Shown in pieces: positions 131-22,585 of a DNA stretch of 64,000 nt (its first letter is position 1; every line of letters begins with the position of its first letter). Under the pieces are notes generated by a model. It had not been told where the DNA came from. It saw only the letters and a list, made by a program, of their open reading frames with translations, and ran no database searches. The stretch comes from Eledone cirrhosa. Its lineage: Eukaryota. The stretch spans positions 327,298,001 to 327,362,000 of the forward strand of contig OZ024743.1 in the NCBI GenBank assembly GCA_964016885.1, written 5' to 3'. Both the position numbers and the translations under genes were made by a program.

Positions 131-349
131 TTTTAACTTTTTAAGGCTATGTTAGAAGACACCTAGCCAAAGTGCAACTTGAAACAATGTAGTTGCAAGG
201 TGAACTTCTTACCTGAAGAGCACCCAGTCGTAAACAACTACTCTAACAAAAAAACTAAGGTAAATTTGTTGTATAAATTTACCAAAACTACATGTTAGTG
301 TAGAATATAATAACGAATTTAAAGTAGGAAAAAACAAAACAACACATAC

Positions 350-392
350 ATGAGCCTCCCCTCTTGGCCCGTCGGACACTAATTCGGTGTGC
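350..392 (-). CDS. 43-nt internal exon, AHRISVRRAKRGGS (furin-type site), probably the next exon of the type II TM gene
   Basis: Strong acceptor ttttgttcttttcttttcag and donor gtatgt. The phase-0 reading gives R-R-A-K-R and matches the phase-0 donor at 21990. The exon ends in phase 1. Confidence 0.6.
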
Positions 393-1149
393 CTGAAAAG
401 AAAAGAACAAAAATAAAGCATAATTACAGTATTTGTAATTTTAAATGAGAATATTTTATTTCACTGTGATACCTTACCAGTTCAAAGTGAGATTAAGGAT
501 CTCAAACTGAGATAAATACAAAAGATTTATTTAACAGAAATTATAACACAAAAACACTATAACATTATTTATGCGTTCTTTACAGACCTGCCAACCTCTA
601 AAAACCCAAACGGAGTACCATGAAAAAAAGTGCCCCAAAACGGGGAAGAAATGAGGCAAAATTTACATAATGAAAGCTATATCCATTTTCACAAGAGAAG
701 ACATCTCTCACCCACCCCAAAGTGGGTGGGAGATCTCCCTGTCCAACAGAGAGAGTTATAGGAAGAATGAGGAGTCAAATAATTACTTATACCTTTTAAT
801 AACTATAAGTTGAAATATCTAAGGACTTTGTTATTACAAACAATTATAAGAAAATACCTTAGTCGATGTGTTGTTTCAAACACCATTTTTCTTTTGCCGT
901 TCAACCACTAGCCAATATGTAACGACAACAACATAATTACGGCCTGGCCAGCACCTCAGCCAGTCGACCGTACCTTCTTAATTTGTTTATTACTTTGTTT
1001 GGCATGCCAGCTCAACCTTTGTAATCGGCTTGTAAATAAATTATGTTAAAACATTGTAAAGTCTTGTGATGCTATTACCACAGCCATAGCCTTTAAATGT
1101 GAAATGGAAAGATCCTTTCCAGAGTTATTATCACACAGCAACAGAACCT

Positions 1150-1345
1150 GTGAATTGGCAGCATCGGTAAAGCGTCAGACACCATGCTGTACAGCATAGA
1201 GTCATGTCCCTTTACGTTGAGTTCAAATCCCGCCAAGGTTAACTTTGATTTTTATCCTTAATGGGTCTATAAAATGAAGTACCAGTAATGCTCTGGAATA
1301 ATTGCTGGCCTTGTGCCAAAATAGAAACAATTATTATTATTATTG
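1150..1345 (+). mobile_element. tRNA-derived SINE, family A (tail ccttgtgccaaaagtagaaacaa(tta)n)
   Basis: A-box-like tggcagcatcggtaa and B-box gagttcaaatcc. Homologous to copies at 13315, 20800-21870, 27720, 31735 and 39305. Confidence 0.85.
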
Positions 1346-1559
1346 TCGTTGATACTATTATTACATGGCATAATATTATTTTTTTGCTAAATTGGTGACT
1401 ATTAAATAACTGCTATATTGGTGACCCCTGTTGATACAAATATTATCATTATCATAACTCTGCTAAAAGTGTATTACTCGATGCTCAATGTACCAACAAA
1501 TGAATGTTGTTATAAAATAAACATTGTTAACATCACAATTCTGGCATTATTCTTTCTAT

Positions 1560-1756
1560 CATTCATCCATAAAAGAATACATTTATCCACTACAAATGGT
1601 GACCGCCGACGTGATTCAAACCCAGTCTTCTCACATTTACCCACTATAAATGGTGACCCCGAGTTAAAACAACACATCCTTCTCGCTACAGAGTTGACAG
1701 ATCTGTGTTTTTCTTGGCCAAACAGTGAAGCTAAACAATTATCTTTCGAAAAATGA
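1560..1756 (+). mobile_element. LTR-retrotransposon (Gypsy-like) LTR end/primer-binding-site remnant
   Basis: ccactaca followed by tggtgaccgccgacgtgatt (1597) and again tggtgaccccga (1651). Both are complementary to the 3' end of eukaryotic tRNA-Trp. Confidence 0.5.
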
Positions 1757-1994
1757 TTGATGGATTACATTACATCTACCGTTTTTCGGCAATGATTCTT
1801 GTTTTCTTGCATGTATGTAGTCTAAATTTATTGTTTGCAATCGTCAAATTAATATATTTGAATTGACTAATGTCCTTGTAGTTCAATCTACAATCATAAT
1901 GTGTGAGCTGACTGTAAACAACACATCTTTGTTCCACGTACACTCGATGGTGCTTGTAAAGTATTACAACAATCACTTTAGAAAATAAGCACTT

Positions 1995-2210
1995 TTGTCA
2001 AAAATCGGCTGCTCTCTGATAAGTCTGTGGTTGAGCCGGTGACAGTGGAGACTGCCGGCGTTCTTAACCCACGACCATATCCTTTGTCACTGCTATCGGA
2101 GCGGAGTTGGCTTCCCACAGGTGCGAACCTCGCGAGGTATAGTGACTATAATGTTTTATTGATAGAAACTTCCAATAAAGACCAAGCTATACAAGGGAAA
2201 TAACTCCCGT
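1995..2210 (+). mobile_element. CRE-clade non-LTR retrotransposon, decayed endonuclease C-terminus
   Basis: Translates across a frameshift as EPVTVETAGVL / PTTISFVTAIGAELASHRCEPRE, matching the CRE RLE motif PVAxETxG...LGxxL...GxxRE. Confidence 0.6.
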
Positions 2211-2559
2211 CAGTCGTTAGAGCTTCGGTCAATGATTAACAGTATTTGGTCTAGCTCTTTACTTTCTGCGTTCAAATCTTTCCGAGGTCAACTTTGCCTT
2301 CCAATAAAGTACCAATAAACTATTGGATCGGTATAATCGACTTTCCCCTCCCCACAAATTACTTGTGACGTTTTTTTAATTTCTTACAGAATAAAAATGT
2401 AAACACAAATATAAACAAAAGATTATTGCTAGGAATCTCACAAATATGATGCACAAAAATATATGATCAAAGCGAGAGAAAAAGAAAAGGAACGAAATAA
2501 ACAAACAAAAACAACCAACAATTCACAACCGAATGCAACAATCGGCTGCACACAACTAG

Positions 2560-3150
2560 GGTCAACGGAAAATTTTGAGGCAAGCCAACACGATCACAGC
2601 ATTACTGCAGCTGATGGTGAAACAACCAGGTACCTTCACGGGTATCACCTGATACATAAGTAAGCCGTGCTGCCAACGATGACATGAGCTTGGCTGTCAG
2701 CAGCCCAGCTCCACCAAACGTCTCAAATGCTACAGGCTGGAAAGATTGCTTATTTGATTATTTTCAGTATTTTAGTATTTTATTCCGTTCAGCAACAGAA
2801 ACAGTAACCTTCATATTTACTGTGGCATCCATGATGTGGGAGGGAGTAAAAAAGTAACTGATTGTGGCATCTCAGATGGAATATCTGGTCTCTTCCCATC
2901 AATTCTGGATAATCCAGCCAGTTCCAGAACTGAGGGGATATTTACATGTACTAGGGCCCACTTAATAGTCAGGTTTAGATCGGTGTAGCAGATGAAGTGA
3001 CTAGCATTCAGGTGGCAGGACAAACCATGGAGGCATGTGGAGTCGAGGGATCTACCACAGCGACATCTCAGAACCCTACAGACATCAGCTCCCACTCGAA
3101 GTGCAATGGAGATGCAGAGCTCATCCAGACTGAGAAGACCACTCTAGTCA
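2560..3150 (-). mobile_element. CRE-clade non-LTR retrotransposon 3' fragment (Zn knuckle + restriction-like endonuclease)
   Basis: CRCGRSLDSTCLHGLSC...NIPSVLELAGLSRIDGKRPD, then FQPVAFETFGGAG...SGDTREG. Confidence 0.85.
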
Positions 3151-4035
3151 CCCAAGAATTTTGTGCTGGTGACTAAATTAGAAATCATTATTTGACTTAC
3201 TGTGATTGAAAGTGAATGGTTTTTGTTTGTTTTGTTGCGTATATTATCATAGTGTCTTGTTCTCTGAATCATAAGACTTCCATGCTACATCACTATGTGA
3301 AGATACATTACCTTAGTTAAATTAAGTTTAAGTGAAACGACAAGGTTGGGAGAATATGAATGGAATGGACCTCTGTGGAACAGCCTGCTTGTTAAATTAA
3401 CAACTGGCTGAGAATTCCAAAGACATTAGTATGCTATATACCAGGATTACTGTATATATAAACAATCATACAAACTGAGAATTTTAAAGTTTTATAAATT
3501 AATGGTTTGCATAAGAGAAACCCTATATTTTATGTTCATTACTGACTCGTGGAAGGGATTAAAGATAAGAATGATGTTTTAATAATTTCTAGTATATAAT
3601 TACATAAATTCTCAGCATATATGTACAAATTGCATACTCGATTATGAGTAACATTGAAGAAATAACTTACAGGGACAAATGTAGAGATAGAACCCAAGAC
3701 CTTGTGATTGGAAAGCAAACTTCTTATTGTAACAACATTACTGAGATAGGAAATACATTGTATATATGTTTGTAAATGTTATAGAGTTTCAGATGGAAAT
3801 ATACAAGCATGTATTATATTAATATGGTTGATTAATTGGAAAATTCAGCATGACAGAGTATGACATAGCTGACCCTATCCAACTGACTTCCAATTAGTTT
3901 CCATCTACCCAATTTCACTCACCAGCCTTGGGTCAATTTGAAGCTAAATGACCCTTGCCCAAGATGTGAGATTGAATCCTGGACCTAATGATTGCAAAGG
4001 AAACTTCTTATAGACTCACCCTACTTTAGGATATA

Positions 4036-5026
4036 CTAGCAGAATGGCCTGGCGTTGCTTAGGACTCTAAACATAGATTGGCATGTTTATCCCTCCTTTC
4101 TGAAACAGTACAGAGAAGTACGGAATAACTCGGCCTTGCGACCGTTGAATAGCAGATTCCACTGATGATTCATTAGCCCACCTTTTTCTTTTTCTTGCCG
4201 CTTTTGCAGTATTTCGGTCAATGGAGTATCTCTTCTTTTGAGGCATGACCTAAAAGAAGGACGAAGTACACTAACATTAACTGGTAGAGTAAGGAGTAAA
4301 CTCGTCAGTGATGCATGTGATTTCCAAACCATTGACTATGTAATTGCTGGCCTTGTGCCAAAAGTAGTGGGACTTTTTGGGTGGCATATCGACAGTAACA
4401 ATGACGATAAGCCGTCTGTACTTTTGTGAAATAAATACGTTTGTTTATATTTTGTGTTTTTGTGTATGAAAAAATATCTGTACACGAATATATATATATA
4501 GATATATATATATATATATATATATTGAAATAACAGATTAAAGTCTAAGCAAAGAATCGCTGCTTTCACCCTTAACAGGATCTTCTGAAACTAAAAAAAT
4601 CAATCTGTGAACGCAGAAGTAAATATTTCGAAAAACGTTGCAACCGAAGGAAGACAGGAAGACGATACTTTGGTTCGTGAAGACATTCCCTGGCAATGAA
4701 CGGAAAATAGCGAAGATAATATGTCAGCAATAAGAACAATATTTGTCATAATGTCGTAATGCAGACAGCCAGACATACAGACATATTATAAGGGCGCGAT
4801 GTTATAGCTATGTATCTATCTACAAAGACAGACTAAGAAAGACAGAGAGATCGCAAACCGGCGCCTTATGCGGTCCCTAGAGCATTGAAAATCTGAAATA
4901 ATTTTTGCTCAAAACACTCACACCACCATAAGTATTACACGTGTAAAGTTTGAAAAAAATTGGTTGGGTGGTTCTCGAGTTTTAGGGAGTCAGACAGACA
5001 GACATTCTCTGTTTTAGATATAGAGA
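4036..5026 (-). mobile_element. Non-autonomous Helitron
   Basis: Minus strand starts a|TC and ends in a GC-rich subterminal motif followed by CTAG|t. The first ~110 bp and the 3' end match the element at 55067-55679. Confidence 0.75.
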
Positions 5027-5609
5027 TTAAATTAAATTAGCTGACCTGTTCATCATCAAATCATCTCACTTGTACTTTCTTTCTTTTAACTTTATGCTAC
5101 CGTATTGGATAAGTTATAAAATTTATATAAGTGAGAAAAAATGTTCATTTTTCTCCTGATTGTATGCCAGTTAGAATCATATCTGACAAGCTTCTTCCAC
5201 TCAACGATTCTCTATGCTAAATATATTCTTTCAGACATTGAGATTGATACAAATAATTATGCACCAACAAGCTATTTATGATTTGGTTTTGCATACATTC
5301 ATATTTACATTTAAAAATTAATACATTACATTAGTTTATTTTCTCTAATTAATATGTTAATTTTTCTTTCATTAAGTTACATCAATCTTATAAAGTATGA
5401 ATAAATAATAGGATATTTTATTATGCAGCTTTTCTCATTATTTGATAAACCCTGTTTTGTTTGTTTTTTAATTGTTTCTGCACATTTTTACCTAAATGTA
5501 ATTAGTGATGGCTGTATATTTATCACCACTACAGAATGGTAACTCCACCATTACCACTACATACCTAACCAATTAGCCATGCTGCATCCACTAAGTAGAA
5601 ATGTGAGTA

Positions 5610-5970
5610 TCTGGAGAGAAATCAAGCAACCATGTTTCGTTGGATGTGCAATGTAAATGTGAGAGAAAGGCAGAGCTTGGATGAGCTGAGGGAGAGGCTG
5701 GGTTTAAGGGGAATCCGAGATGGTATACATGAAAGAAGACTGTGTTGCACATGGACAATGACCGGTAATCCCAGTGGAAGGAAGTTGCAGTAGAGGACGA
5801 CCAAGAAAGACCTGGGCAGAGGTTGTGTGAGCAGATCTCAAATCACTAAGACTGGCAGAGGAGATGATGAAGGAACGCGACAAGTGAAGAGATGCCGTGC
5901 CGAGAAGGAGCTGTCCAATCCATGCAAGCATGGAAAAGCTGACGTAAAAATGATGATGAGGATGATGATA
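5610..5970 (+). mobile_element. RTE LINE 3' fragment
   Basis: LERNQATMFRWMCNVNV...RGRPRKTW and a (GAT)n tail. Confidence 0.85.
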
Positions 5971-6884
5971 ACTAATGTTAGAGAAATCCTTTTCACTGCT
6001 GGACAACATTTGTACTATTAACTACTAAACTGTTAAGGAATAGAACATAAGTGCCCCTGGGTGAACTGAGCCATGCCTTGCTGAAGGATGTCATTGCAAT
6101 GACTTTAGCATTAAAATTTGGACTCATGTTCATGTAGTGATAGTCCTATACCTAAACCTCATAGCTATACTGTATGTTATGGAGCTTTAGTTCAGCTCCG
6201 ATCAAGTGCTGGAAATAGGAAAAATTTCATCTCCCTGTCCTATTTCATGGCTTTGTGGTTAGAGTGTTGGGCTTACAATCATGAGGTTGTAAGTTTGATT
6301 CTCAGATGGGAGTTCGGCTCCTCTGTGTTTGGACCTTGTGTACATGTGTCTATGTTTACTAAAATATTCATTGAAGACACATGGCTGCTGTTTCTAGCAG
6401 GTAAAATGACCACATTTATTTACAGGAGTTCCAAATGAAAAAGATCGACATGTATAATAACAAACTGGCAAAGATTGAAGTTCATTGTCAGTGGCCCAGC
6501 TCCTGCATAAGCCACAGGCTGGAAAAACAGTTTGTCGATAATTTCCAATATTCCAAAATTTTATTCCGTCCGTTTACGGTAGCAGTGAACCTCGCATTTC
6601 CTCTAGAAAATAGTTATTTAACACAGATTTGACTGCTTTTTCTAGCAGGTAAAATGACCACATTTGTTTACAAGCACTCCATATGAACATGGTCAGCATG
6701 TGTAATAACAAATTGGGAAAGATTGAAGAATATGGGCATCGTTCCTCGTTATTTGGCTAAGTTATATAAACAGAAATACGACATAGATTTTATAGATAGG
6801 AATACCGACGGGTATACAACACTTTTGAAGGAGTAATGTGTGCTGATTTAAAAGTTAGCTGAAAAAAATGGAAAAATTTGAGTC

Positions 6885-8015
6885 CCATTTCCACAATCTG
6901 GTGGGCTCTTCGGAAATTAGGGGTAGATGAGTTGTTTGTGAGGGCACTTCAAGCCATGTACAGAATAGCAGTCAGCAAGGTTAGAATTAATTATAAGTAT
7001 AGTGAGGAACTTAGTGTGCTTGTTGGGGTTCACCTGGGCTCTCTTCTTAGCCTTTTCCTGTTTATTACCGCCCTCCAGGCTATAACAAAAGAGTTTATAA
7101 CTGGCTAAACATGCCGATGACGTAGTCATAGCTGAATCTATAGTAGAATTAGAGAAGAAATACCTGACTTGGAAGCAAAACTTGGAATCAAAAAGTCTTA
7201 AAGTCAACTTGGCAATGACAAAAATCATAGTAAGTAGAAAGGAAAACAGGGTCCTGATCCCTCCACATGGAACAAGCTCTATAAAAGGGCTCTGTAGAAG
7301 TAGTTGAAAACTCCTATTACCTGGGTAACCTAATTAGTGATGGAGATGGATGTTTTGGAAGAACAGTAGCCAAAGTAAGAATGTGATGGAAAAAGTTTAG
7401 GGAACTACTACTGTTTTTCCCTCCAAATGTAAGGCAGATTGTATGATGTTTGTGCATGAACAACAATGCTGCATGGAAGTGAGACCTGAGTGCTATGTGC
7501 AGAGAGCCTATGAAAATTGGAAAGATTTGAAGCTTGCATGTTCTGATAGATGTGTAATAGTAGTGTACATGAAAGGTGATGCATTTATAAACTGAGAAAG
7601 AAACTGGGCATAAGAGGGATCAGATACAGTATGCAGGATAAGAGATTGCAGTAGTATGGACATGTGATGCCTATGGAGTAATGACAGCTATATAAAAGGG
7701 TGCAGGGCACTTGATGTTGATGGAAAATATGGAAGAGGAACACCTAGGAAAGTTTGAGATGAAGTAATAAAACCTGACCTCACACAATTAAACCTCTCAA
7801 AGGGGATGACACAGAATTGAGATCTCTAGCGATATGCAGTGCTGTAGAAGACTGGTCTTCCAATGTGTACATGATGTTTGGAAAAGGTTTAAATCATTGA
7901 TGCTTGTTCCTTCAATTTCCCCTGTGCATCTTTTACAAACAAAGTCTTCCCTTCCTGTTAATCTAGTTGTTATCCCACTACATCTCTTGTGTACCCAAGA
8001 CTTCCATTGTGTATA
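6885..8015. mobile_element. RTE LINE RT/3' fragment (+, 6885-7870) abutting an inverted RTE fragment (-, 7870-8015)
   Basis: IWWALRKLGVDE...GVHLGSLLS...HADD on the plus strand; WVHKRCSGIT...CKRC on the minus strand. Confidence 0.85.
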
Positions 8016-8017
8016 TA

Positions 8018-9272
8018 TTGTTTTGGCCAAAAAGTCTGTTCGGTTTTTGTTGACACTAAACTTCAAGCATTCTAATATGTAGCTAACTTCAGTTTGTTCC
8101 TTGTACATGTGGACTTGTTAGATTCTTGACAGTTCAAAGTAGTTTGACACAGACTTGCAACATGACGAGTTGTATTTTGTGTGCTTTGATCACACTGAAA
8201 ATGAAGAACCAAACTGGATATTATTGATATTTCATGCTTTATGATTTAAAAAAAAGGCAAGAAAATGACAGAAACCTTCAGGAAGATATATGCTGTGTAT
8301 GGAAAGGATGCTGTTATAGAGCGTGTGTGCCAGAAGTGGTTTCAAGATTTTGATCAAGAAATCTTTTGGCTCAAGATGAACCTTGCTTTGGTCAGTTAAC
8401 TGAGATTAACAGTGACAAAGTGAACAAGTTAGTCAAGACCTACCCCCTTTATACATCCAGGATGTTTGCAGATATTCTTCAAATATTCAAATCAAGTGTT
8501 GAAAATCATCTGCATCAACTTGGTTACGTCAGCAAGCTCGGTGTTTGGGTCCTACATCAATTGACTAAGGCTAACCTCACCCAACAGATTTCTGCAATTT
8601 GTTGCAGAAACATGAATAAAATAATCCTTTTTTGAAGAGAATAATGACAGGGGGCGAAAATGGATAATTTATTATAATGTGAAGCACAAACGATCATGGG
8701 GGAGTCCGGCGAACCACCACAAACAACCTCCAAAACAATTTTACTTGAAGAAGGTATGCTTTCAATTTGGTGGGATTATGAGCTTCTTCCTACAGATATC
8801 AATTCGGATGCATACTGTGACCAGCTGGACAAGTTAAATGCAGCAAGCTACCAGAAGCATCAAGCATTTGCTAATCATAAGAGCATTGTGTTTCATCATG
8901 ACAATGCCAGATTGCACACTTCCTTGCAGATGCAACAGAAGTTACTTTATTGGGGCTTGGCTGGGAGGTTTTGGCATACCCTCCATATTCACTTAATCTT
9001 GCACCTTCAGATTTCCATGATTCAGTCTCTTCAAAATTCATTGAATGAACACTTTCAACTCAGAAGCGGATGTAAAAATACAGCTGGAAGGGTTTTTCAG
9101 CAGTAAAGACAGGACATTCTTTGAGCAGGAAATAATGGATCTGTCCACAAGATAGCAGATGATACAGGAATGAAATGGTAATTATATCATTGATGGAATA
9201 AATCACTTTTTTGTTTAAAACTTGTGTCATATTTTCGCTTAAAAAAACCAACAGACATTTTGGTCAATCCAA
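8018..9272 (+). mobile_element. Mariner DNA transposon, full length but decayed
   Basis: Imperfect TIRs (ttgttttggccaaaaagtctgttcggttttt / aaaaaaccaacagacattttggtcaatccaa) flanked by TA. Transposase motifs VYGKDAV..RVCQKWF, EKWIIY, HHDNARLH and PYSxxLAPSDFH, with frameshifts. Confidence 0.92.
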
Positions 9273-9312
9273 TATATGTATGTTGTGTATAGTCGCTCCT
9301 GAGTGTTACCGG

Positions 9313-9480
9313 TAACATGTAACCCAGTACAACATGTCACATGGCTGGGTCATCGATAACTAAGCCAGCAACCTCATCAAGCTTGCTTGGTGAGGAGGGT
9401 GATTGGACACCCTGCAGGATGAAAAAACCAAACCTGACGAAATGTGGAGAAATCATGAGGATCAACAGCCATCCAATAGT
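9313..9480 (+). repeat. Dispersed repeat, probably LINE 5' UTR-derived
   Basis: Clear homology to 54034-54200 (acatgtaacccagtacaac...ggtgaggagggtga...acaccctg...gatgaaaaa). Confidence 0.6.
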
Positions 9481-9699
9481 GTGTACATATGTAAATATTG
9501 TATTAGTATGTAAATATGGATATATGGGTGTATGGGGGGTTGTTTGCATATTTTATTGTATGCATTTTTTTAAACTTTAAAATTTTTATATAATTTTTTT
9601 TAAATTTCATTTTATCTTATTTATATATTTAACCTATTATCTACTAATAATCTTTTTTTGAGAGAGAAGGAATAACCAGCAACCAATCATCTTGCATCT

Positions 9700-12600
9700 A
9701 CTTGTCGATGGATCCTGGTTGTTAATAACTAGAGAGATGCATGTGTCTATCACAAACACATGCTACTTTGATCTCCTTGTGTAGATATCTTTTGTGGTGA
9801 TGAGGAAGCAGTGACGTATACAGTTGCTAATCTACACACAGGCGGCTTAAGGCTTATCTAACTTCATTGTCAGTTTTCAGAATAGGAACTGGATTGGGTG
9901 GAGTCTTGCGTTTGAGCAGCCCTTTCAAGGGAGAACATTGCTCACCCAAATCTTTGGAGTGGTTTAGAAAAGGTGACCCAAATATTGTCTGTTCCACCAT
10001 CAAGCTGGTCAGCTACCTGCGACTGATGGCTGTTCATACCGGCAGAAAAAACAAGAAAAAGAATAGTAATTTTCAAAAGAATAAAATTGCATTGAAAGTT
10101 GCTACATGGAATATTGGAACACTTCTTGACAAGGAATCATCGACAAATCCAGAATGCAGAACTGCTATTGTTGGCAGAGAATTGAGCAGGTATAATATTG
10201 ATATAACTGCACTATATGGAATGGTGAAGGTCATCTATCAGAGAGGGGTGTTGGCTATATGTTCTTCTGGAAAGGGAAACCAAATGGTAAAAAAAGGAAT
10301 GGAGGTGTAGGTTTTGCTGTCGAGGCAGAGGTCACAAAGCAACTGGAGAAACCACAAGGCATTTGTGATTGAATTATGCATCTAAGAGGTCATCTTTCAA
10401 GGGGACGTTTCATTACTATCATTTCAGTGTATGCCCCTAGCCTGGATATTAGCCCGGAATCAATCATGGCTTTATACCAAGATTTACAAGGGTGTATAAC
10501 ATCAATTCCACATTCAGACAAGATTTTGCTTCTTGGAGATTTTAATGCATGTGTGGGAAAGGACAACCACATCTGGAATGTTTTGGACATCATGGCATGG
10601 GCATGATGAATGCCAATGGTCTTTTTTACAAATATGCACTGAGTTTGAGCTGGTCATGTGCAATACCTTTTTTCAGCAAGGCAACATGGACACACCCGAG
10701 ATACAAACATGGATAGATCTTGGATTATATCATAACCAGGAAGAGAAACCACCAGGATATCTGCTCTGTAAGCAGAATGTGGTACAGACCACAAACTTGT
10801 ATGAGGCTAGATAAAGGTGCATATCAAAAGAAAAGTGAGGGCAGCAGGGGAACAAGTGCCAAAATGTATAGATGTGTCCAAACTGCAAAGTTTAGAAATG
10901 GGAGATGCTCCTCAAAATGCACTTGACAATGTTATCTTTGATGGAACTTGGGAACAGTTTAAACAAATTTACAATGCTGGGGCTGATGCATTTGGTCTTA
11001 AGAAGACAAAACACAGTGACTGGTTAGATGATAATGATACTGCAATCACCATGCTCATTGAAGAGAAGTAAGTGCTTTGTTCCTGAGGGTCCAGTGAGGA
11101 CCACTTTTGTGAAGGCCTTCAAAGAAACAACGTAAAACTCAAGAGATGAAGAATAACTGGTAGTCTGAAGTTTCAGCAGAGATGCAGAGAGCTTATAACT
11201 GCAGACACTTGAAGGCATTATACAGCACAATAAGGCAGGTTTTGGGCTCACAGTCCAGAAAAATGGCACCATTGAAGTCAAAAGATGGGAATGTCCACAT
11301 CAAAGATCCAGCAGGAATCATGCCTCAGGGAACTGAACACTTTAAGGATCTGTTTGTTAACCTATCTGTAGTTGATGAGGAAATTATTAATGGACTGCTG
11401 CAAAAGGAGATTGTAACAGAGATGATGAATGATCTAATCATTGATGAGATAAGGTCTATTATCAAAGAGATAAACACAGGGAAAGCTCTAGATTTGGATA
11501 GAATACCTGTTGAGCTGATTCGCTTTGGAGGAGACAGTGTTGCTATGGCCATTCATTAGCTAGTCTTATCTGTAAGGCATGGTGAGCCTGTCCCGCAAAA
11601 CTGGGTAGATGCAATTTTGCTCTTGATTTACAAGGGCAAGAGTTCCATGTCTGAATGCAGTGATTATCGTAGTATAAGTCTGCTGAATTCAGTAGGAAGA
11701 GTCTTATCCAAGGTCTTGCTGAATTGTCTAATAAAATGGATCTGCCCTGGTACCACCCTTGAGACCAAATGTGGATTCAGAGCTGGTTCTATGGACATGA
11801 TTTTTTCAGCTCATCAGCTTATAGAGAAGTGTGTTGAACTTCAATGGGACACTTTCAGAGTCAATTTCAGTGGAAAATGGTGTCAAGCAAGGTGACATTC
11901 CTGCACCCACTCTGTTCTCCATCTACTTTGCTGTACTGTGACATACGCCTTTCAAGACTTTGAAATTGGTGTATACTTACAAATTAGAAACTTTGGTAAA
12001 GTCTTTAATCTAAGATGCTTTAACACTAAGTCCAAAACGCTTGGCACTCTTGTAAGGGAGTTCCTGTATGCTGATGATGCAGATTTTGTGGCACATGCAG
12101 TTGATATTGGACACCTCTAATGCATGTACTGTGTTTGGGTTAAATATTAGCATAAAAAGACAGTTAGGGAAGTGTATGTGGAGCCAGACATTTTCATGAG
12201 AGGAAAAAGATTTGAGGTGGTGGACAGCTTTGTGTATCTCAGAAGTACACTTAGTAGAGATGGTACCCTTGATGCTTAAATAGAACACAAGATTGTGAAA
12301 GCAAATCTTGCCTTCAGGAAGCTTGAGAAGTGAGTCTGATCAGATTGGGGTATCACAAGAAACACAAAGCTTTCTGTGTATGAGGTCTGTGTTCTTATAG
12401 CCCTGTTATTTGAATGCAAAATGTAGACAACTTACATGCATCACATCAGGCCACTGAAAAGGTTTCATCAGCATTGTATCTGATGCATCAAATGATCCTC
12501 TTACGTACCTGATGCTGCTGTACTTGAGAAAGCAGGCAGCACCAGTATTGAGAGGAGGATTATTATGAACCAGATGCATTGGGCTGGTCATGTGGTCAGG

Positions 12601-13035
12601 ATGGAAGATAGAAGGCTGCCTAAACAGTTATTTTATGGGGAGTCAAACAGGGGAAAAAGGCCACAGCATAAACTGGTTTAGGGATGTCATAAAAATCCAG
12701 CAGGAATTGAGGTGCAATGTATGTGGCCAATTTCTTCTATCAAGAGCTGGATTTGTATACCAAGCCAAGGAGAAGCCACTTGTGAGATGGTTCTACCACC
12801 ACACACTGCATGGTAATTTGCAATGAGTATGGCTTAATTGGACTGACCAGACATGGTAGAATGCATGAAGACATACCCCAGCTGGTATTGCCAGAAGACA
12901 GTTCAAGTGTCACATTTGTGACCATGCTTGCAAAACAAAAGCAGGTCTGAAAAGTCACATGTATGCACATGATTGTGCAATGTCCAATGAAGGGATAGCA
13001 CTCTTCTAACAAGAAGTAGCAATCAACATGTATGT
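9700..13035 (+). mobile_element. RTE-BovB-like LINE, near full length, decayed
   Basis: APE endonuclease (ATWNIGTL, RELSRYNIDI, SVYAP, LLGDFNA), RT (YKGK, DYRSISLL, CGFR, FLYADD), C-terminal C2H2 fingers and a (TATG)n tail. Confidence 0.92.
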
Positions 13036-13314
13036 ATGTGTGCAGGCATGACTGTAAGGATAAGGAGTTCTTTTCACATCCACATGGTAAGAGAATACTA
13101 TTATAGCCTCAGCTTGTGGGTGAAATTTGGTAGGTGGAAATTGCAGAAGCCTATCATACATACATACATACACACACATACACATGCACACACACACAAA
13201 TATATGTAATATGTATGTATCCATAGCTATGTTTGCATTTGTGTCTTGTGTTTATGTCCCTATGAGCAACATAGTATTGTGGTTTGATAATTGTTAACAG
13301 TGTACACAATATTT

Positions 13315-13510
13315 AAATAATTGTTTCTACTTTTGGCACAAGGCCAGTAATTACCCAGTGGATTACTGGTACTTTATTTTATCGACCCCATAAGGATGAA
13401 AGGCAAAGTTAACCTCAGCGGGATTTGAACTCAGACCATAAAGGGCCGTAACTCTTTGCTGCAAAGCATGGCGTCAGTCCCTCTACCAATACTGCCAATC
13501 CACTGCATAT
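13315..13510 (-). mobile_element. SINE family A copy
   Basis: Reverse complement of the family A consensus. Confidence 0.85.
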
Positions 13511-13744
13511 ATTTAAATAATAAGCTATGGATTGGCATCAGGAAGAGTATTCAGCTGTTGAAATCCTGCCTCAAAAGGTCTCATTACAACCCATACAAGC
13601 ACGGAGAAAGCGAACAAAATTGATGGGGTGATGATGACTGTACAAGTTCAGTGAATGCACAGAAGTTGGTTTATCCACAGTTAGTTTTATAGTTGTATGT
13701 TGAAATTGTTAATCATATGACTGTGTAGAAGGTAATTTTCTTTG

Positions 13745-13992
13745 TCATCTTGATACCAAACCACTTGAAACCACCCCTGATCCTACTATAGAAAACTGTT
13801 TATTTTAAAGTCTTAATATTTATCTAAAACATTCCATCATAATTTTTTGTAAGAACCTTTGTTAAGTTATGTCCAAACACCATCTTAGTAATGAGAAAGT
13901 TAGTCATATTGCTAAATCCCTTCAGATTCTTGATTATTTTCAAAACCATAGACAGTGTCTTTCATTAGAAATATGGTAACAAAAGAGTTAAA
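13745..13992. mobile_element. MITE-like repeat, probably piggyBac-type
   Basis: Ends in aaaagagttaa. Homologous to 62290-62460 (gttccaaacacca...taatgagaaagttagtc...ttcattagaaatatgg). Confidence 0.5.
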
Positions 13993-14419
13993 GCTGTGAT
14001 ATGTAATTTTTTTTTATTCTTTGTACACAAATACATTGTGCTTTCCTTGTAATGTTACATTTCTCAATGCTTATTAGATCTAATAAAAATTATTTTCATC
14101 ATTGTTTTAATGTCTGCTTTCCCTGCTAGCAAGGAATATATTATAATATATTACTTGCTAGCAGGATAAGCAGAAATCATTATCTCTTCAATCAATAATT
14201 ATTGATTAAAGAGATAGTGTTGTCTAAGATTAGTACAAGGCCACATAATTATCAGAGAGAAGTATAGCTGACTGAATAAATCACAGTATATGACTGGTAC
14301 TTATTTTATTAACATTGGAGAGATTAAAGGTAAAGTTGATGGCAACATGATTTAAGAGTAGAACCTAGAAGAATAAACTACATTGTTATTGGACCACTAT
14401 TGATTCCAATGACAAATGT

Positions 14420-14718
14420 TCCTGCTGATTCAATCAATGGAACAGCCTTCTTATGAAATTAATGTGTGAATAGCTAAGCATTCTAAACTCATGTGCATTC
14501 TTAATGTAGTTCTCAGGGAGAGTCAGCATGACAGAATGTGTGATAAAATGGCTATTGGATTTACGGGCACAATTAATTTTTGACAGCTGAGTGGACTAGA
14601 ACAACATGAAATAAACTGTCTTCTTGTTTAAGAACAAAATGTACCATCTGGTCCAGGAATCAAACTCACTACCTTATGATCATGAGCTGAACTCCTTAAT
14701 CACTAAGCCACATGCCAT
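14420..14718 (-). mobile_element. tRNA-derived SINE with CORE-like domain, family B
   Basis: Head tggcttagtg...gtgagtttgattcc and a CORE-like gttctagtccactcagctg. Related copies at 48440-48580, 49555-49810 and 58680-59005. Confidence 0.7.
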
Positions 14719-15433
14719 CAAAATTAATATATTGCATGGTAGTTGTACTGCTTGAAGAAGTAAGACTAATAAACCAATTTCAATTCATTATTGTTTGTGT
14801 TATTTTTATATTAGTTAGGACAGGTAATTTCTTTCATATAGTAAAAAAAAAAAAAAGTTAATGTCTATCCCAAGTCCGGAGGCTTATCATGCTGGTGCTT
14901 CTCCAGGTTTTATTAGTGTTAAGTGACTGTCAGTACCAGACCTTTGCCTGGACAGGATATTAGTTCATTGCAGGGTTAACTGCCAGCTACTACTGGTGTT
15001 CATTTTCAGCTGAGTTGACAGGAGCAATCATCATCATCATCATCGTTTAACGTCCATCTTCCACGCTTGCATGGGTTTGGACGGAGCAATGTGAAATGAA
15101 ATAATTTTGCTCAAGGATACAGTATCTGATCCAAGAATGAAACCTAGAGATATGTAACAAAAGACCAATAATTTGTTTTTAAGAGCTGGTACAATGTGGT
15201 AGAAAAATACAAAGGATATATGGTGACAAATGAAACAAAACAAAACAAATTAATGTTTTACCCAGTGTATTTTAACATGATATTTAAGGGCAATTATCCT
15301 CTTTTCAGATGCAAAACTGAAACAGTCCAAGACAAAACAAATATTCTAAGAAGAGAAGTTAGTGAGGGTAGGTCTATATTAGTACACTAAAGTTGTAACC
15401 TCATGATTCAATTTCATTAGTTAATTACATTTT

Positions 15434-15583
15434 GGGTGTTGATACATAGCTGTGTACCAGTAATGTACTGGGACTGGCAAGTGTGGGTGTTGATACATAG
15501 CTGTGTACCAGTAATATATTGAGACTGGCAAGTGAGGATGTTGATACATAGTTGTGTACCTGTAATATACTGGGTCAGGCAAG
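15434..15583. repeat. 51-bp minisatellite, about 3 copies
   Basis: gggtgttgatacatagctgtgtaccagtaat...ctggcaagt recurs at 15434, 15485 and 15536. Confidence 0.9.
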
Positions 15584-15891
15584 ATTTAAGAATAGAAGGT
15601 AAGCTCTTGCTTTGCTAGCTGAAATTTTTTAACAAACTTTAGTATTAACTCTTAACATCTCATAATGATTTAGTAGAAACTATGTAATGCTGGTATGTTA
15701 ATTCAAATGTTTATAGTGTCTTTACTACTGGACAAATCGTTGTGAAACTTTGTACTATTAGAGTAAAGGCTTCAATTTTTCATATGTTGCAGTCATAGTG
15801 TTGTTTTATACTTTTCAAGAATGTCTTACTAATATGATTTCATTTGCTACAGCACGTTAAATGTTAAATGTATAAATATTAAATTACTAAC

Positions 15892-18800
15892 ATCATCATC
15901 ATCATCATCTTCGTTTAACGTCCATCTTCCACGCTAGCATGGGATAGACGGGCGTTGTCCCACTTGAGGCAAGATTGGTCGGGTGACTGTGTCTTGCTCA
16001 TATAGGACTATCTGGCAGGTTTTCTACGGCTAACACCAACCACATTTACAGTGTGGAACTGGGAACTTTTTACTGTGTTACCTACACGGCCACATTACAG
16101 CGTGGACTGTGTGTTTTTTTTCTCGTGACACCTACACGATCTCGATCTTGATCTCATTATCTCATTTATTTGGACTGGATGTTGTGGTACCAACTTTACA
16201 GAGAGAGGGTGGTGTTAGTGGGAGGATAGGGTAGGGGTAGTGGATTGGGGTGTATATTTGGTTAAGAGGTTTCACTTTGTACATAGGCAAGACGGGTCTT
16301 CTGTATTATTGCGTAGCGCCAAAGATCTCGGTCCAGTGACATTGTCTTAGAGAGGTGTAAGTGTGTAAGGTCGGAATTTATCAAATCGTCCCAGGTTTTT
16401 CTGGGTCTACCTACTCCGTAACCACCATCAATTTTGATCGCCCTGCACTTTTTTATACAGCTGTCGTCTTTCATGCGCATCACGTGGCCATACCAACGTA
16501 GTCTTCTCTCGAGTAAACAGCAACTGATCCCTCTTATTCCTAATTTCTCACTTAGTTCATTTATGCTTTGCCTTTCACGTATATTACTATTACACATCCA
16601 ACGGAGCATGCATGTTTCATTCCTTTCCAGTCTGCGCAGGTCCTCTGCACACAATGCCCATGTAGCACTGCTGTTCGTATACAGGCATCATACAATCTGC
16701 CTTTTATTTTTAGAGAGAAACCTTTTGTGGCCAACAGCAGTAAAAGCTCTCAGAACTTTTTCTATCCCGTTCTGACTCTGGCTACTGTAATTTCAGAGCA
16801 CCCTCCACCACTGCTGATTTTGTCACCCAGGTAACGGAAGTGTCCACTATTTCTATAGAACCATCTGGGCAATTGAAGGAGCTAGTATCCTGTGGGCACT
16901 TGCTACTTATTGCACCTGAGCATCGGCCACATATAAAATCTATGTTCTTAGATAGTTTACCTGTGATCCCACTATATCTTTTATGTGCCCATACTTTGCA
17001 TTTGGAACATAAAATGGAATTTCTGCCTACTCCTTTCCTACACACTGAGCATGGCCATTTCCCTGAGGGCACCTGTGCCCTATTTTCCTTTCTACAAACT
17101 AGAACTTTAGTCTTAGACAAGTTAACTTTAAGGCCTTTTGATTCTAGGCCATTCTTCCATGTTTGGAATTTCTTCTCTACTTCAACCATAGATTCAGCTA
17201 TGAGAGTTAGATCATCTGCGTATAGGAGTTCCCATGGGCAGCTGGTCTTAAACTCCTCTGTTATATCCTGAAGGGCAATAATAAATAGGAGGGGGCTAAG
17301 GACAGAGCCTTGATGAACACCAACTTTTACGCTAAATTCTTCACAATATTCATTGTTAATTCTAACCTTACTGACTGTTTCTTTATACATAGCTTATATA
17401 GCTCTCACAAGCCATTCATCTACACCTAGTTTTCTAAGGGCCCACCTGATAATGGAGCGGGGGACTCTGTCAAAGGCTTTCTGCTGGTCTACAAAAGCTA
17501 AGTAGAGGTGTTTACTTTTAGCTAGGTACTTCTGTAGTTGTCGTACAAGGAAAAGAACGTCTGTGGTACTTTTACCTGACACAAACCCAAACTGCATTTC
17601 ATCTAGATCAATTCGCTCTCTGATTAGTTGCGCTATAACTCTTTCTGTGACCTTCACGACCTGGTCAACTAACTTAATGCCTCTATAGTTTCCCCTATCT
17701 AGAGCATCCCCTTTACCCTTGAAGCAGTTAATGATGATGCTGCTGCTGCTACGCCAGTCTTTTAGTAAGACCCCATTCTGTATTACTTGGTTAACTATAC
17801 GGGTGACCATAGTATGTCCCACCATTCCAGATGCCTTCAACATCTCAGCAACTATCTCCGAAGGCCTAGCTCCCTTACCTGTCTTCATATCTTTGATTGC
17901 CTTACTACCTTTAAATTACACCGCTGGTCCTTCTATTGGATTGATTTGGGGCAGACTATCTTTTTCTCATTTATTCTCCTCATTTAATAGTCTCTCGTAG
18001 TGACACTTCCAAGCTATATTCTTATCAGTATCAGTGAGGGCATGTACACCATTATCATTAAGGACACACTTCTCCCCGACAATATCACGGTTTTCCTTGA
18101 CACATTGTCTAGCAATCCTGAACACCTCACGTTTTTGGTCCTCGCGTTGTAGAACATGCTTGAACTTTCTTTCCTCTTCTTCCCTTCTTGTAAGGTACAC
18201 TTGTCTCTTGGCTTCCCTCCTGGCCACTTGATAGTGTTCTCTACTTCCCCCATCCCGCCATACTTTCCAAGCCTGCTTTTTGGCCATGATTGTCTCCTCC
18301 ACCTTACTGTTCCACCACCAAGTTACTCTCCTCCTGCCAATAGGTCTGCTCCAGTCACAGATTTTATCCGTTGCTTTCAGCAGGTTCACTTTCAAGAATT
18401 GCCACTGTTCCTCTATATCGCACATCTCTAATTGCTCTTCCTTATTGTCAAAGGCATCAAGTAATAAGCTTTTAAATTTGTCACTGGCTATGGGGTCCTT
18501 CAACTTCCATAATCTTCTCCTCAAGGTAGGCCTCCTCTGTCGTCGAGTACGCCTATTCCTGACTATGAGGTCACTAACTACTAGGCTATGTCGGGAGGTG
18601 CATTCTTTACGAGGGAGGGATTTAGTGTTTACAACAGACACTGTCACGTCTTCTGGTAAGGATATAATCTATCTGACTGGCGTGTTCCCCTGATCTATAG
18701 GTGATCAAGTGGTTTTCTCATTTTTTAAAGTTTGTGTTACAGATAGTTAGGTTATTAGCGTCACAGAATTCCAGGATTATGGAGTCCTCCTAATTTCTAT

Positions 18801-19072
18801 TTCCAAGCCCATAGCCTCCATGGATTCCATCATAACCATCACTATGTTGTCCAATGTGACCGTTTAGGTCGCCAGCAATAATTAAGTAGTCACTGTTGGT
18901 TATTTGGGAGGTAGTGTGCATTAGCGTCTCATAGAACCTGTCCTTTATAACGTCAGATAGACCAGATTGGGGTGCATAAGCGGATATTATTGTGACAGTA
19001 GTTCTATTTAGAACTAGTCTTATTTTAATTATTCTGTCATTCACTCTATTTACGTCAATTACCTTATCAGCT
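15892..19072 (-). mobile_element. RTE LINE, 5'-truncated, ~3.2 kb (APE endonuclease, RT with embedded PHD-like finger, 3' UTR, (GAT)n tail)
   Basis: ISAYAPQ, IIAGDLNGH, NYRGIKL, QFGF, GVHQGSVLSP, LLYADD and GRPRKTW across several frameshifted ORFs. Confidence 0.95.
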
Positions 19073-19089
19073 AACATATGTAACAATTT

Positions 19090-19960
19090 TCTAAAAAAGC
19101 AACTATTGAAACTATTGAAAATGAAGAAAATTACAAACAGAAGCTGCTGGCTGAAAAACTGAGTAAAAGTAGGATCTTCATGGATTTGGTTGAAAAAAGC
19201 TGATCTTAATAGAGAGACAACGTTTAATAATAGCTGCTTAAGACCAAGCACTAAACACAATTGCGATAAGAAATATATATAACCCGGATGAAACAAATAA
19301 GTCATGTGGGAAGAAGGTAGAAAGTGTGACACATTATGAGTGCCTGTGACATGCTTGCACAGACAGAATGTAAAAGGCATTGTGATAAAATGTACTTTTA
19401 CTTGCATTGGTCTTTCATCATCATCACCATTTTACGTCCGTTCTTCCATGCTAGCATGGGATGAAAGAAATATGGGTTTGCAACCACTGAGAAATCAGAC
19501 TGTGAAACTCTTGTGGGACATTACAATTCAGACAAATAAAGTTCTTATAAATACAAGGCCAGACATAACTTTTGGTGGAGAGGGGGACTAAAAGGAGGTG
19601 TTTGTTGATCAATGTAACTTGCCCAGGAGACCATTACATCAATGGTAAAGAACACAAGAAAATTGTAAAGTATGCAGACTTGAGAATAGATGTTGAGAGA
19701 ATGTGGAATATGAAAGCAAGAGTGGTACCATTTGTGATTGGTTCACTTGGGTTAGTGACAGAAAATTTCCAGAAAAACCTTGATAGAATTGGAATCTGTT
19801 CCAGCATTATGACATTGCAAAAAGCAACACTTTAGGGAACAGCAAATATCCTGCAAAAAGTAATGTCTGTCTGAGGCTACATAACTTGATAGGGAGTCAA
19901 TTAAACGATCCAGTGTTAATAAGATTATCCATGTGCAAATTAATATTATAATAATAATAA
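19090..19960 (+). mobile_element. R4/Dong-clade non-LTR retrotransposon 3' fragment
   Basis: SWIWLKKADL..DQAL, CGKKVESVTH, KLLWDITIQT..NTRPDI, KYADLRIDVERMW..VPFVIGSLG; ends in (TAA)n. Confidence 0.85.
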
Positions 19961-20760
19961 TGACAATGTTTTCTTTATTAACCGCAAAGCGTATACTTAA
20001 ACTACATTAAAGACAGCACAGGACGGTACAAATATGGGTTTCTGCGTGTACAAAAAAAAAACAAAAAACAAATAACAAAAACAAAGGATGTAACAAAAAA
20101 TCAAAACAAAGGAAATTTGCCCAAGACGTCATCGTTCTTGCTCTCCACTAACCCTCTATAGAATGCGAAGGTAGAATTTCCACTGATCACAGTGCCTGAT
20201 TGGCCAAGGGCTTGAAGACATTTCAGTTCCCAAGCTCTCTTTCTTGGTCTCTGCTTGACCCAAGGTTACAGCTCCGTCAAGGAGATGAGTTGGAGAAAAA
20301 CATGCCTAGCGAGGAAGATCTGAAAATATTGTAGCCTCAGCGCATGTTTGTGCATCATCAGCCATGGCATGTCCACTCTTCCACATCATGGGTGTTGACA
20401 GCAGATGGACTGCCTGACCATCGGAACATATTCCTTCCACAAAAAGCGAAAGAGCAAACGCTCCAGTGCAGTCAGACGAGTCTTAAGACTAGGCACAATG
20501 GTCAGGTGATAGTAGATGACAGATCTACGCATTCATCACTTCCACCCAACCTTTCAGGGTTAGCTTCTTGGCTCATTTCTTCATGAGAGAGGCCACCCTG
20601 TTTGTCACTTTGTCCCAGTTTTTGTCCATCTGGAGGTCCGGACCAAACCAGACCTCTAGTAATTTAACCGGTCCACCCATCCAGTGCCCAACAATGCTGT
20701 TGGATGGTATGGACCTGCCTCACCAGGTGCTAAGTCAAAGGCCCACCGACTTTTCCGGGT
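19950..20760 (-). mobile_element. L1/Tx1-like LINE fragment with an internal deletion
   Basis: The 3' UTR matches 33792-33960. Adjacent coding sequence (RGLVESKNDDVLG) matches 33066-33107. Confidence 0.75.
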
Positions 20761-20799
20761 AAATCATTTATCCTGTCACCTCCTCGTATTCTCTTAGAG

Positions 20800-21870
20800 A
20801 TGAAAGGCAAAGTTAACCTCGGTGGGATTTGAACTCAGATCATAAAGGGAGGTAACTCTATGCTTCAAAGCATGGCGTCCGACCCTCTACCGATACTGCC
20901 AATCCACTGCCCTTATTAAAGTAATAATAATAATGATAATTGTTTCTACTTTTGGCACAAGGCCAGCAATTACCCAGTACATTACTGGTACTTTATTTTA
21001 TCGACCCCGTAAAGATGAAAGGCAAAGTTAACCTCAACGGGATTTGAACTCAGACCGTAAAGGGACGAAACTATGCTGGAAGGCATGGTGTCCGACCCTC
21101 TACCGATACTGCCAATTCAAATAATAATAATAATAATTGTTTCTACTTTATGCACAAGGACAGCAATTTGAAAGGGAGGGGAAAGTTGATTAAATCGACC
21201 TCAGTGCATTACTGGTGCTTTATTTTATCGACCCCGTAAAGATGAAAGGCAAAGTTAACCTCAACGGGATTTGAACTCAGACCGTAAAGGGACGAAACTA
21301 TGCTGGAAGGCATGGTGTCCGACCCTCTACCGATACTGCCAATTCAAATAATAATAATAATAATTGTTTCTACTTTATGCACAAGGACAGCAATTTGAAA
21401 GGGAGGGGAAAGTTGATTAAATCGACCTCAGTGCATTACTGGTGCTTTATTTTATCGACCTCGTAAGGATGGAAGGCAAAGTTAACCTCGGCAGGATTTG
21501 AACTCAGAAGATAAAGGGACGTAACTCTATGCTGCGAAGCATAGTATACAACAATCTACCGATACTGCCAATCTACTGCCTTAAATAATAAGGATAATAA
21601 TACTATTTTCTTCTACTGCTACCTGGTGGTGGTGGTGGTGGGGGGGGGGGGGGGCATTAGAAGGACAGATATTAATAATTGTTTCTACTTTAGGCACAAG
21701 GCCAGCAATTACCCAGTGCATTACTGGTACTTTATTTTATCGACCCCGTAATGATGAAAGGCAAAGTCAACCTCGGCGGGATTTGAACTCAGATCGTAAA
21801 GGGACGTAACTATGCTGGAAAGCATGGCGTCCGAACCTCTACCGATACTGCCAATTCAAATAATAATAAT
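20800..21870 (-). mobile_element. Head-to-tail array of about five family A SINEs
   Basis: Repeated ttgtttctactt...gaaaggcaaagttaacctc...gatttgaactcaga...taccgatactgccaat units separated by (TAA)n. Includes a near-exact 227-bp duplication. Confidence 0.9.
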
Positions 21871-21989
21871 GTAGGATAACAAAGGATCTACTTGTACACT
21901 TGATATATAACTACTACCACCACCACCATCACAGTGTCAACTAGCAAAACAAGCAAGACAAAAAATGATATATAAAAAAATCAACTTAC

Positions 21990-22256
21990 TGGATGAGATC
22001 GATTCTGAGGTATTGTCTCCACATAAGTAGTTGCATTTTTTTCATTAATGTTATTTTGCTCCAACAATGTCCCATATGGAGGTTTAACATTGTTTTGAAC
22101 ATCAAGTTCCTGCAACTTGGCTGAGAGGTTGTATACCTGCCATTGCAAGTAACCTACCCATGCTAGCAACATGACCAAACCCAGATAAACATATCTGCAG
22201 GTATCTGTAGCATTGTTGCTATAAATTGTTGCTAGAAGCTGCTTCTTTAATGACAT
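21990..22256 (-). CDS. Coding exon of a type II transmembrane protein (short N-tail, one TM helix, stalk); ectodysplasin/TNF-ligand- or transmembrane-collagen-like layout
   Basis: 89 codons, MSLKKQ...RYVYLGLVMLLAWVGYLQWQVYNLSAKLQELDVQ...NRSHP, in non-repetitive sequence. Ends at a consensus donor CCA|GTAAGT (phase 0). Acceptor tttcag lies 4 nt before AAAATG. The TM segment is followed by a heptad-like stretch and N-x-S/T sequons. Confidence 0.7.
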
Positions 22257-22466: not shown

Positions 22467-22523
22467 GTGTTCTTAGAAAAGGGAGAAAAAACTGTGTATA
22501 TATATATATATGTGTGTATATAT

Positions 22524-22585
<62 letters not shown>

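What the first reader, a model, noticed from the sequence alone, without database searches (positions are those of the whole stretch)
350..22256. Candidate ectodysplasin/TNF-like type II membrane gene: TM exon joined over a ~21.6-kb intron to a furin-site micro-exon
Seen: exon 22256-21990 (TM and stalk, phase-0 GTAAGT donor) and exon 392-350 (strong acceptor, phase 0 to phase 1). Spliced, they read ...NRSHP|AHRISVRRAKRGGS. Established: EDA, gliomedin and collagens XIII/XXIII/XXV are type II proteins shed by furin. Human EDA has RVRRNKR in a small second exon after a very large first intron, and as I recall with the same 0/1 phases. Inference: a shed ligand of this class that the ORF track cannot show. 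The collagen/TNF/C1q/olfactomedin part would lie left of the window, so the family is not determined.
Basis: partly seen in the sequence, partly recalled or inferred. Interest (0 to 1): 0.7.

Follow-up and report, generated by a model that had tools for sequence, protein, structure and literature searches.

The report
Collagen-less TNF-family ligand gene, octopus-like
The two exons are the start of a seven-exon gene for a membrane protein that ends in a divergent, TNF-like signalling domain and is likely released by furin; it has no collagen segment, so it is an ordinary invertebrate TNF-family ligand rather than an ectodysplasin.

Summary
Exon A (22256-21990) and micro-exon B (392-350) start a real gene. 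One 1053-nt contig from a spliced-looking run leaves the genome at A's donor and covers a TNF-domain exon 62 kb away. The 136 nt between are filled exactly by B plus two micro-exons left of the window (43+32+61). The seven-exon model gives 274 aa: hydrophobic segment, stalk, RAKR, about 20 residues, then a TNF-like domain split over four exons. An Octopus sinensis RefSeq protein, named 'uncharacterized', is colinear at 48% identity and matches Pfam TNF over profile positions 3-127 (E 1.9e-4, 21.8 bits, cut-off 23). There is no collagen, and no cysteine in the TNF domain, so it fails the tests for ectodysplasin (EDA) and for the EF-disulfide group. The A-B joint was not read directly. Furin shedding, trimer formation and the receptor are inferred. 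One side point: exon phases and sizes resemble EDA with its two phase 1-1 exons (one holds the collagen) removed. Verdict: new member of a known family.

The parts
22257..22390 (-). 5' leader covered by the spliced contig; three short upstream ORFs (ATG at 22386, 22342, 22286); in-frame stop 18 nt before the main ATG
   Evidence: sequence
21990..22256 (-). Coding exon 1 (A): short N-terminal tail, hydrophobic segment at residues ~21-41, stalk; phase 0 donor
   Evidence: 42 of 89 residues identical to P0005
393..21989 (-). Intron 1, 21,597 nt, with reverse-transcriptase element fragments and tandem repeats
350..392 (-). Exon 2 (B), 43 nt, phase 0 to 1, carries RAKR (residues 97-100)
   Evidence: inclusion inferred from length and homology, joint not read directly
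1..349 (-). Start of intron 2 (4,562 nt). The gene continues LEFT of the window (G000:C4 position = 327298000 + coordinate): exon 3 -4213..-4244 (32 nt, phase 1 to 0); exon 4 -21989..-22049 (61 nt, 0 to 1, first strand of the TNF-like domain); exon 5 -39827..-39959 (133 nt, 1 to 2); exon 6 -48941..-49039 (99 nt, 2 to 2); exon 7 -49723..-49912 (190 nt with stop)
   Evidence: Exon 3 inferred like exon 2; exon 4 and exon 6 are the contig's loose ends and exon 5 is covered end to end; exon 7 matches Pfam TNF 76-127 at E 0.017; identities to P0005 for exons 3-7: 5 of 11, 6 of 20, 26 of 44, 20 of 33, 30 of 63

Best explanation
This is a spliced seven-exon gene whose 274-residue product has a hydrophobic segment near the N-terminus, a basic RAKR site in micro-exon 2 and a C-terminal TNF-like domain with no collagen; it is likely a type II membrane TNF-family ligand that furin would cut to release a predicted trimeric cytokine. 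Shown: splicing at exon 1's donor and at both ends of exon 5, an open frame over all seven exons, colinear homology to an octopus protein, and no Gly-X-Y run or TNF-domain cysteine. Inferred: inclusion of exons 2 and 3; N-in/C-out orientation (3 basic against 1 acidic residue before the hydrophobic segment; five downstream N-glycosylation sequons aligned in both species); a cut after residue 100 releasing a 174-residue, ~20 kDa, basic fragment; trimer formation; and binding to one of the TNFR-type receptors of this genome, for immune or cell-death signalling as reported for other invertebrate TNF ligands.
For: Spliced contig. Exact 136-nt fill. One stop, at the end of 825 nt, and all six introns GT-AG. 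Orthologue P0005 = XP_029633980.1, Octopus sinensis: 132 of 276 columns identical, E 2.7e-81; it matches only this locus in the genome (4 matches, all its exons). Pfam TNF is the only family for P0005 (E 1.9e-4, positions 3-127) and for exon 7. The only solved-structure hit for P0005 is TNFSF6 (Fas ligand), weak at E 0.46, with the W and G..F...SQI motifs aligned. The orthologue keeps a basic cluster with RFRR and KKKR at the same place. The genome has three loci with TNFR cysteine-rich repeats.
Against: The Pfam score (21.8) is under the cut-off (23), and exons 4, 5 and 6 alone gave no family. Exon 7 alone resembles C1q as much as TNF: adiponectin at E 0.0073 summed over three repeats; best Atlas hit 0.93 in a cluster with 12% C1q, TNF cluster 0.84. 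The hydrophobic segment is modest (Kyte-Doolittle 19-residue mean 1.44). Exon 2 is only 3 of 14 identical, and the orthologue has K where this gene has the last R of RAKR. The RNA evidence is one contig of one run whose kind is not on record, and DNA runs X2 and X4 laid nothing on exon 5, so that exon has no DNA control. No cleavage or receptor binding was tested.
Confidence: 0.8

Rival explanations
1. It is a TNF-family ligand that stays in the membrane, or is shed by a metalloprotease; the basic cluster is not a working furin site.
For: Exon 2 is poorly conserved and the R-X-K/R-R motif is shifted between the two species. Skipping exons 2 and 3 together keeps the frame and removes the site. 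TNF-alpha is released mainly by metalloproteinases (PMC12367993, passages).
Against: Both species keep a basic cluster with a full R-X-K/R-R motif in the same 25-residue segment. The contig's length requires those 75 nt.
Confidence: 0.1
2. It is a true EDA-lineage gene (EDA/Eiger group) that never gained, or lost, the collagen exons and also lost the E-F disulfide.
For: EDA exon ends c.396/502/526/706/741/793/924 give phases 0,1,1,1,0,1,0. Without the two 1-1 exons this is 0,1,0,1,0 against 0,1,0,1,2 here, with exons of 35/52/131 nt against 32/61/133 nt. Many invertebrate TNF ligands resemble EDA (PMC7674686, passages).
Against: No cysteine in the TNF domain of either species and no collagen. 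The intron after exon 5 differs in phase. The only PDB hit is Fas ligand, not EDA. Six Octopus vulgaris TNF ligands form their own cluster in a mollusc-rich clade, while EDA groups with Eiger in another (bioRxiv 10.1101/2024.07.27.603686, section 6); whether this gene is among the six is unknown.
Confidence: 0.2
3. The C-terminal domain is a C1q-type domain, making this a membrane-anchored C1q-domain protein.
For: Weak adiponectin and C1q-cluster likeness of exon 7. The two families share a fold (established knowledge).
Against: The full-length orthologue matches Pfam TNF and not C1q at E up to 1. The W and SQI/TQI motifs align with Fas ligand. For exon 5 the Atlas ranks a TNF cluster (0.86, a lead only) above a C1q cluster (0.84).
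Confidence: 0.05
4. The spliced contig comes from a processed retrocopy in DNA, and the intron-containing locus is not shown to be expressed.
For: Run X1's kind is not on record.
Against: Genome searches with exon 1 DNA and with exon 1, 5 and 7 peptides found only this locus as a full match. X1 holds 88 million letters against about 1400 million for X2-X4 and has no cover at 22396-22651, where those runs have some.
Confidence: 0.03

Closest known systems
Octopus sinensis LOC115209654 (XP_029633980.1, 'uncharacterized protein')
   Same: Colinear over the whole length, 48% identical, same layout, no collagen, one cysteine in or beside the hydrophobic segment only.
   Different: Basic site reads RFRR/KKKR instead of RAKR. 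Its exon structure and neighbours were not seen, so orthology rests on sequence alone.
Molluscan TNF superfamily ligands (abalone AbTNF-alpha, pearl oyster PmTNF, six O. vulgaris paralogues)
   Same: Transmembrane segment plus TNF homology domain, similar size (PmTNF 249 aa).
   Different: No such protein scored in my searches apart from P0005, so this gene is strongly diverged; no tandem paralogue within 200 kb on either side.
Vertebrate ectodysplasin A (EDA)
   Same: Furin site in a phase 0/1 second exon; similar phases and sizes of the three exons leading into the TNF domain.
   Different: No collagen-like domain, no E-F disulfide, different intron after exon 5 plus one more intron in the domain.
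APRIL / BAFF / TWEAK
   Same: Works alike by inference: no collagen, basic cleavage site a short way before the TNF domain (recalled).
   Different: They carry the E-F disulfide; this domain has no cysteine.

Membership tests
TNF ligand superfamily | C-terminal TNF homology domain | tested here: met
   Met at moderate strength and through the orthologue: Pfam PF00229 positions 3-127, E 1.9e-4, 21.8 bits, below the cut-off of 23; exon 7 of this gene E 0.017. The whole protein of this gene was not scanned.
TNF ligand superfamily | Type II membrane layout (short N-terminal tail, one hydrophobic segment) | tested here: met
   One hydrophobic peak at residues 23-41, charge bias, confident helix 17-50 in the orthologue model; orientation itself is inferred.
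TNF ligand superfamily | Jelly-roll fold and homotrimer | tested here: inconclusive
   Single-sequence models had low confidence over the domain; no complex prediction was obtained.
TNF ligand superfamily | Binds a cysteine-rich TNF receptor | not testable with these tools
   Candidate receptor loci exist; binding not tested.
Ectodysplasin A | Collagen-like Gly-X-Y domain between furin site and TNF domain | tested here: not met
   No run of 3 Gly-X-Y triplets in either protein; no run of 4 or more triplets with 2 or more prolines in 264 kb on either strand; the contig leaves only 136 nt, all accounted for.
Ectodysplasin A | Furin consensus site in exon 2 | tested here: met
   RAKR at 97-100 in the phase 0/1 exon; EDA's site lies in exon 2. 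Cleavage itself not tested.
EF-disulfide group (EDA, BAFF, APRIL, TWEAK) | Disulfide between strands E and F | tested here: not met
   Definition from bioRxiv 10.1101/444554; the only cysteine is residue 20 here and residue 39 in the orthologue.
EDA cluster / Eiger clade | Placement in a tree or conserved synteny | not tested
   No reference TNF sequences were in hand. Neighbours are PDCD10-like and gamma-tubulin-complex-like genes, not compared with other species.
Gliomedin / membrane collagens XIII, XXIII, XXV | Collagen repeats (and olfactomedin domain in gliomedin) | tested here: not met
   No collagen; the C-terminal domain is TNF-like.
C1q-domain proteins | Pfam C1q match of the globular domain | tested here: not met
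   No C1q match for the orthologue at E up to 1 or for exon 7 at E up to 5; only weak likeness.

The most novel reading that the evidence does not exclude
This cephalopod gene keeps the ancestral, pre-collagen exon layout of the EDA lineage: furin exon, ~32-nt exon, first-strand exon, ~133-nt exon. Vertebrate EDA would then have gained its collagen by insertion of symmetrical phase 1-1 exons into the intron after the furin exon. Intron positions would give an orthology marker for TNF ligands too diverged for trees.
Probability: 0.2. Interest if true: 0.55.

Novelty: new member of a known kind. Interest (0 to 1): 0.3.

Why it matters
It gives a family and a testable release mechanism to a cephalopod gene whose database counterpart is named 'uncharacterized' and scores under Pfam's cut-off, so automated surveys of TNF ligands can miss it. 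The links between invertebrate and vertebrate TNF ligands are stated to be unresolved (PMC7674686, passages), and the exon-phase likeness to EDA offers one handle on that. Beyond this it is ordinary: TNF ligands with a membrane segment are well known in molluscs, Octopus included.

Tried and rejected
Word-index homolog searches with exons 1, 7 and 5 found nothing significant (20, 6 and 8 candidates, 0 scored); they missed the real orthologue, so they are weak. The Pfam TNF search of the own genome gave 0 matches at E 0.001 and 12 at E 1.2-7.3; 11 of the 12 are copies of one repeated sequence and none aligns to the model. That search missed this gene too, so it says nothing on paralogue number. 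A 38% match to exon 7 at C4:337.47 Mb has two stops and lies in repeat-like DNA: rejected as a paralogue, most likely chance. P0004 (1927 aa, 24 repeats) is a repeat-summed artefact and was dropped. No RNA holder was listed by kind. Two single-sequence structure predictions were low-confidence (pLDDT 47 and 41), so no fold search was run. Rfam found nothing in the window. The bacterial promoter scan is irrelevant here. Three look-ups of earlier findings returned nothing. The histone H1 protein is not in the collection by exact sequence. A rival 72-nt fill (506-478 plus exon 2 in another frame) scores as well on splice sites (37.4) but was rejected as the observed form: wrong length, wrong first letter (T, not G), poor match to the orthologue. 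Two papers asked for were not held. Ten literature searches listed no study of this gene, but none used the LOC115209654 name, so I do not claim it is undescribed.
Full report
Observation. Exon A starts at ATG 22256, runs 89 codons and ends at a GTAAGT donor in phase 0. Exon B (392-350, 43 nt) has a long pyrimidine tract, a GTATGT donor and carries RAKR in the frame set by A. The window is G000:C4:327298001-327362000 in a 3.0-Gb genome. Coordinates below zero are window-relative: genome position = 327298000 + coordinate.

Transcript evidence. Four public runs from one study hold exon A; their kind is not on record. In X1 a 1053-nt contig of depth 82.1 matches 22390-21989 without a difference and then leaves the genome, while X2, X3 and X4 contigs run through the donor. 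I fetched 200 kb left of the window and scanned it with a simple splice score. This turned up an exon at -39827..-39959 that reads like TNF strands and a last exon at -49723..-49912. A contig of the same length and depth covers the first of these exactly, as letters 537-670. Its two loose ends map to the 3' end of an exon at -21989..-22049 and the 5' end of one at -48941..-49039. Between exon A (ends at letter 401) and letter 538 lie 136 nt. The 61-nt exon leaves 75, and exon B plus a 32-nt exon at -4213..-4244 fill that exactly. This is the best of 207 two-exon fills (37.3; next 31.5, also with B; best without B 27.6), and there was no single-exon fill. On the opposite strand the best scores over 29 lengths were 26.2-29.8. 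The score is crude and three-exon fills were not enumerated, so the A-B joint is strongly inferred, not read. The RNA evidence is one contig from one run.

Protein. The seven exons give 825 nt with one stop at the end and six GT-AG introns, in phases 0,1,0,1,2,2. The 274-residue product has one hydrophobic segment (23-41, mean 1.44), RAKR at 97-100, no Gly-X-Y run and a single cysteine at residue 20. A HMMER search of 1.84 billion proteins with the last exon gave 2 hits. One is a repeat artefact. The other, P0005, is XP_029633980.1, 'uncharacterized protein LOC115209654' of Octopus sinensis. It aligns end to end, 132 of 276 columns identical, including the two inferred micro-exons (3 of 14 and 5 of 11), and it matches only this locus in the genome. 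This is independent support for the model and suggests that the window comes from a cephalopod (inference). P0005 matches Pfam TNF over positions 3-127 at E 1.9e-4, 21.8 bits, just under the cut-off of 23, and no other family. Its only solved-structure hit is Fas ligand at E 0.46. Exon 7 alone leans partly to C1q. Structure predictions were not usable for the domain.

How it likely works. The tail carries 3 basic and 1 acidic residue, and five N-glycosylation sequons after the hydrophobic segment align in both species (43/42, 74/73, 85/84, 155/152, 257/251; a sixth pair, 15/14, lies before it). This fits an N-in, C-out protein. A furin-type protease would cut after RAKR and free 174 residues (20.0 kDa, pI 9.65). 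The orthologue keeps a basic cluster here but with the motif shifted (RFRR 93-96, KKKR 98-101). By family knowledge the domain would trimerise and bind a cysteine-rich receptor (PMC6001812, passages). The genome has three such loci, with 4, 2 and 1 repeats in the frames read. Known invertebrate outputs are apoptosis, immune defence and JNK signalling (PMC7674686, passages). All of these steps are inferred.

Comparison. It is not EDA. There is no room for collagen in the transcript, and the domain has no cysteine, whereas EDA, BAFF, APRIL and TWEAK are defined by an E-F disulfide (bioRxiv 10.1101/444554, passages). The exon layout is nonetheless close to EDA's. Variant tables give EDA exon ends at c.396, 502, 526, 706, 741, 793 and 924, with the furin site in exon 2 and collagen in exon 4 (PMC7010634, PMC6892193, PMC12879417; passages). 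The phases are 0,1,1,1,0,1,0. Dropping the two 1-1 exons leaves 0,1,0,1,0 with exons of 35, 52 and 131 nt, against 0,1,0,1,2 with 32, 61 and 133 nt here. From recall, not from a call: the small 0/1 exon and the phase-1 intron after the first strand are common across TNF ligands, so only the phase-0 intron before the first strand is EDA-specific, and one shared intron can be chance. The size of EDA's first intron was not checked. A survey reports six Octopus vulgaris TNF ligands in one cluster apart from EDA and Eiger (bioRxiv 10.1101/2024.07.27.603686, passages and section 6). Its supplements, which I did not see, may list this gene's orthologue. PMC12843592 (reference list only) and PMC4199593 (passages) added nothing on this gene; PMC12367993 (passages) describes a 249-aa pearl oyster ligand of the same layout.

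Surroundings. No second TNF-like gene was found within 200 kb on either side. Downstream lie PDCD10-like exons at about -111 kb (Pfam E 1.8e-14), and upstream gamma-tubulin-complex exons at about +157 kb (E 2.6e-4). An intact histone H1 gene sits on the other strand inside intron 4.

Verdict. A real gene and a good call from raw sequence, but an ordinary kind of protein: a diverged, collagen-less TNF-family ligand, likely shed by furin. New member of a known family; interest 0.3.

Noticed in passing
L005:1605-2210 (+); window-relative -28395..-27790: Intronless histone H1 gene (201 aa, Pfam E 3.3e-27) with a TATA box and a 3' histone-type stem-loop, nested on the opposite strand in intron 4 of the TNF-like gene; no core histone ORF was found in the 464 kb scanned.
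   Followed up: partly
L006:7417; window-relative -32583 (+): A second histone-type stem-loop with no histone ORF before it; perhaps a remnant.
   Followed up: partly
window 506-478 (-): Candidate 29-nt exon with good splice sites 85 nt before exon B. Used in place of the 32-nt exon 3 it would keep the frame but read exon B in another frame, without RAKR. Not in the observed contig; may be a decoy.
   Followed up: partly
window 22390-22257 (-): Three upstream ORFs (18, 5 and 4 codons) in the 134-nt leader, and CCAAT-like words just before the contig start.
   Followed up: no
window 39490-40317: 93-bp tandem repeat, 8.9 copies, 99% matches, open on both strands; its Pfam matches look like repeat artefacts.
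   Followed up: partly
window 16262-18668, 32805-33686, 34293-35192: Broken reverse-transcriptase retroelement fragments (RVT_1 with PHD finger; zf-RVT).
   Followed up: partly
window 59992-61952 (-): Two long ORFs that look like a Penelope-type element (my recall); no Pfam match at E 0.1.
   Followed up: no
L060-L065 (C4:100.76 Mb, C3:150.74 Mb, C3:40.02 Mb): Three TNFR-type loci; the C3:40.02 Mb frame holds a signal-peptide-like start, one cysteine-rich repeat, an Asn/Asp-rich stalk and a hydrophobic segment.
   Followed up: partly
L049-L050 (window-relative +161.7 to +167.5 kb, + strand): Exons that read like ribosomal protein L4 (my recall; the one exon scanned gave no Pfam match), head to head with the gamma-tubulin-complex gene.
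   Followed up: no
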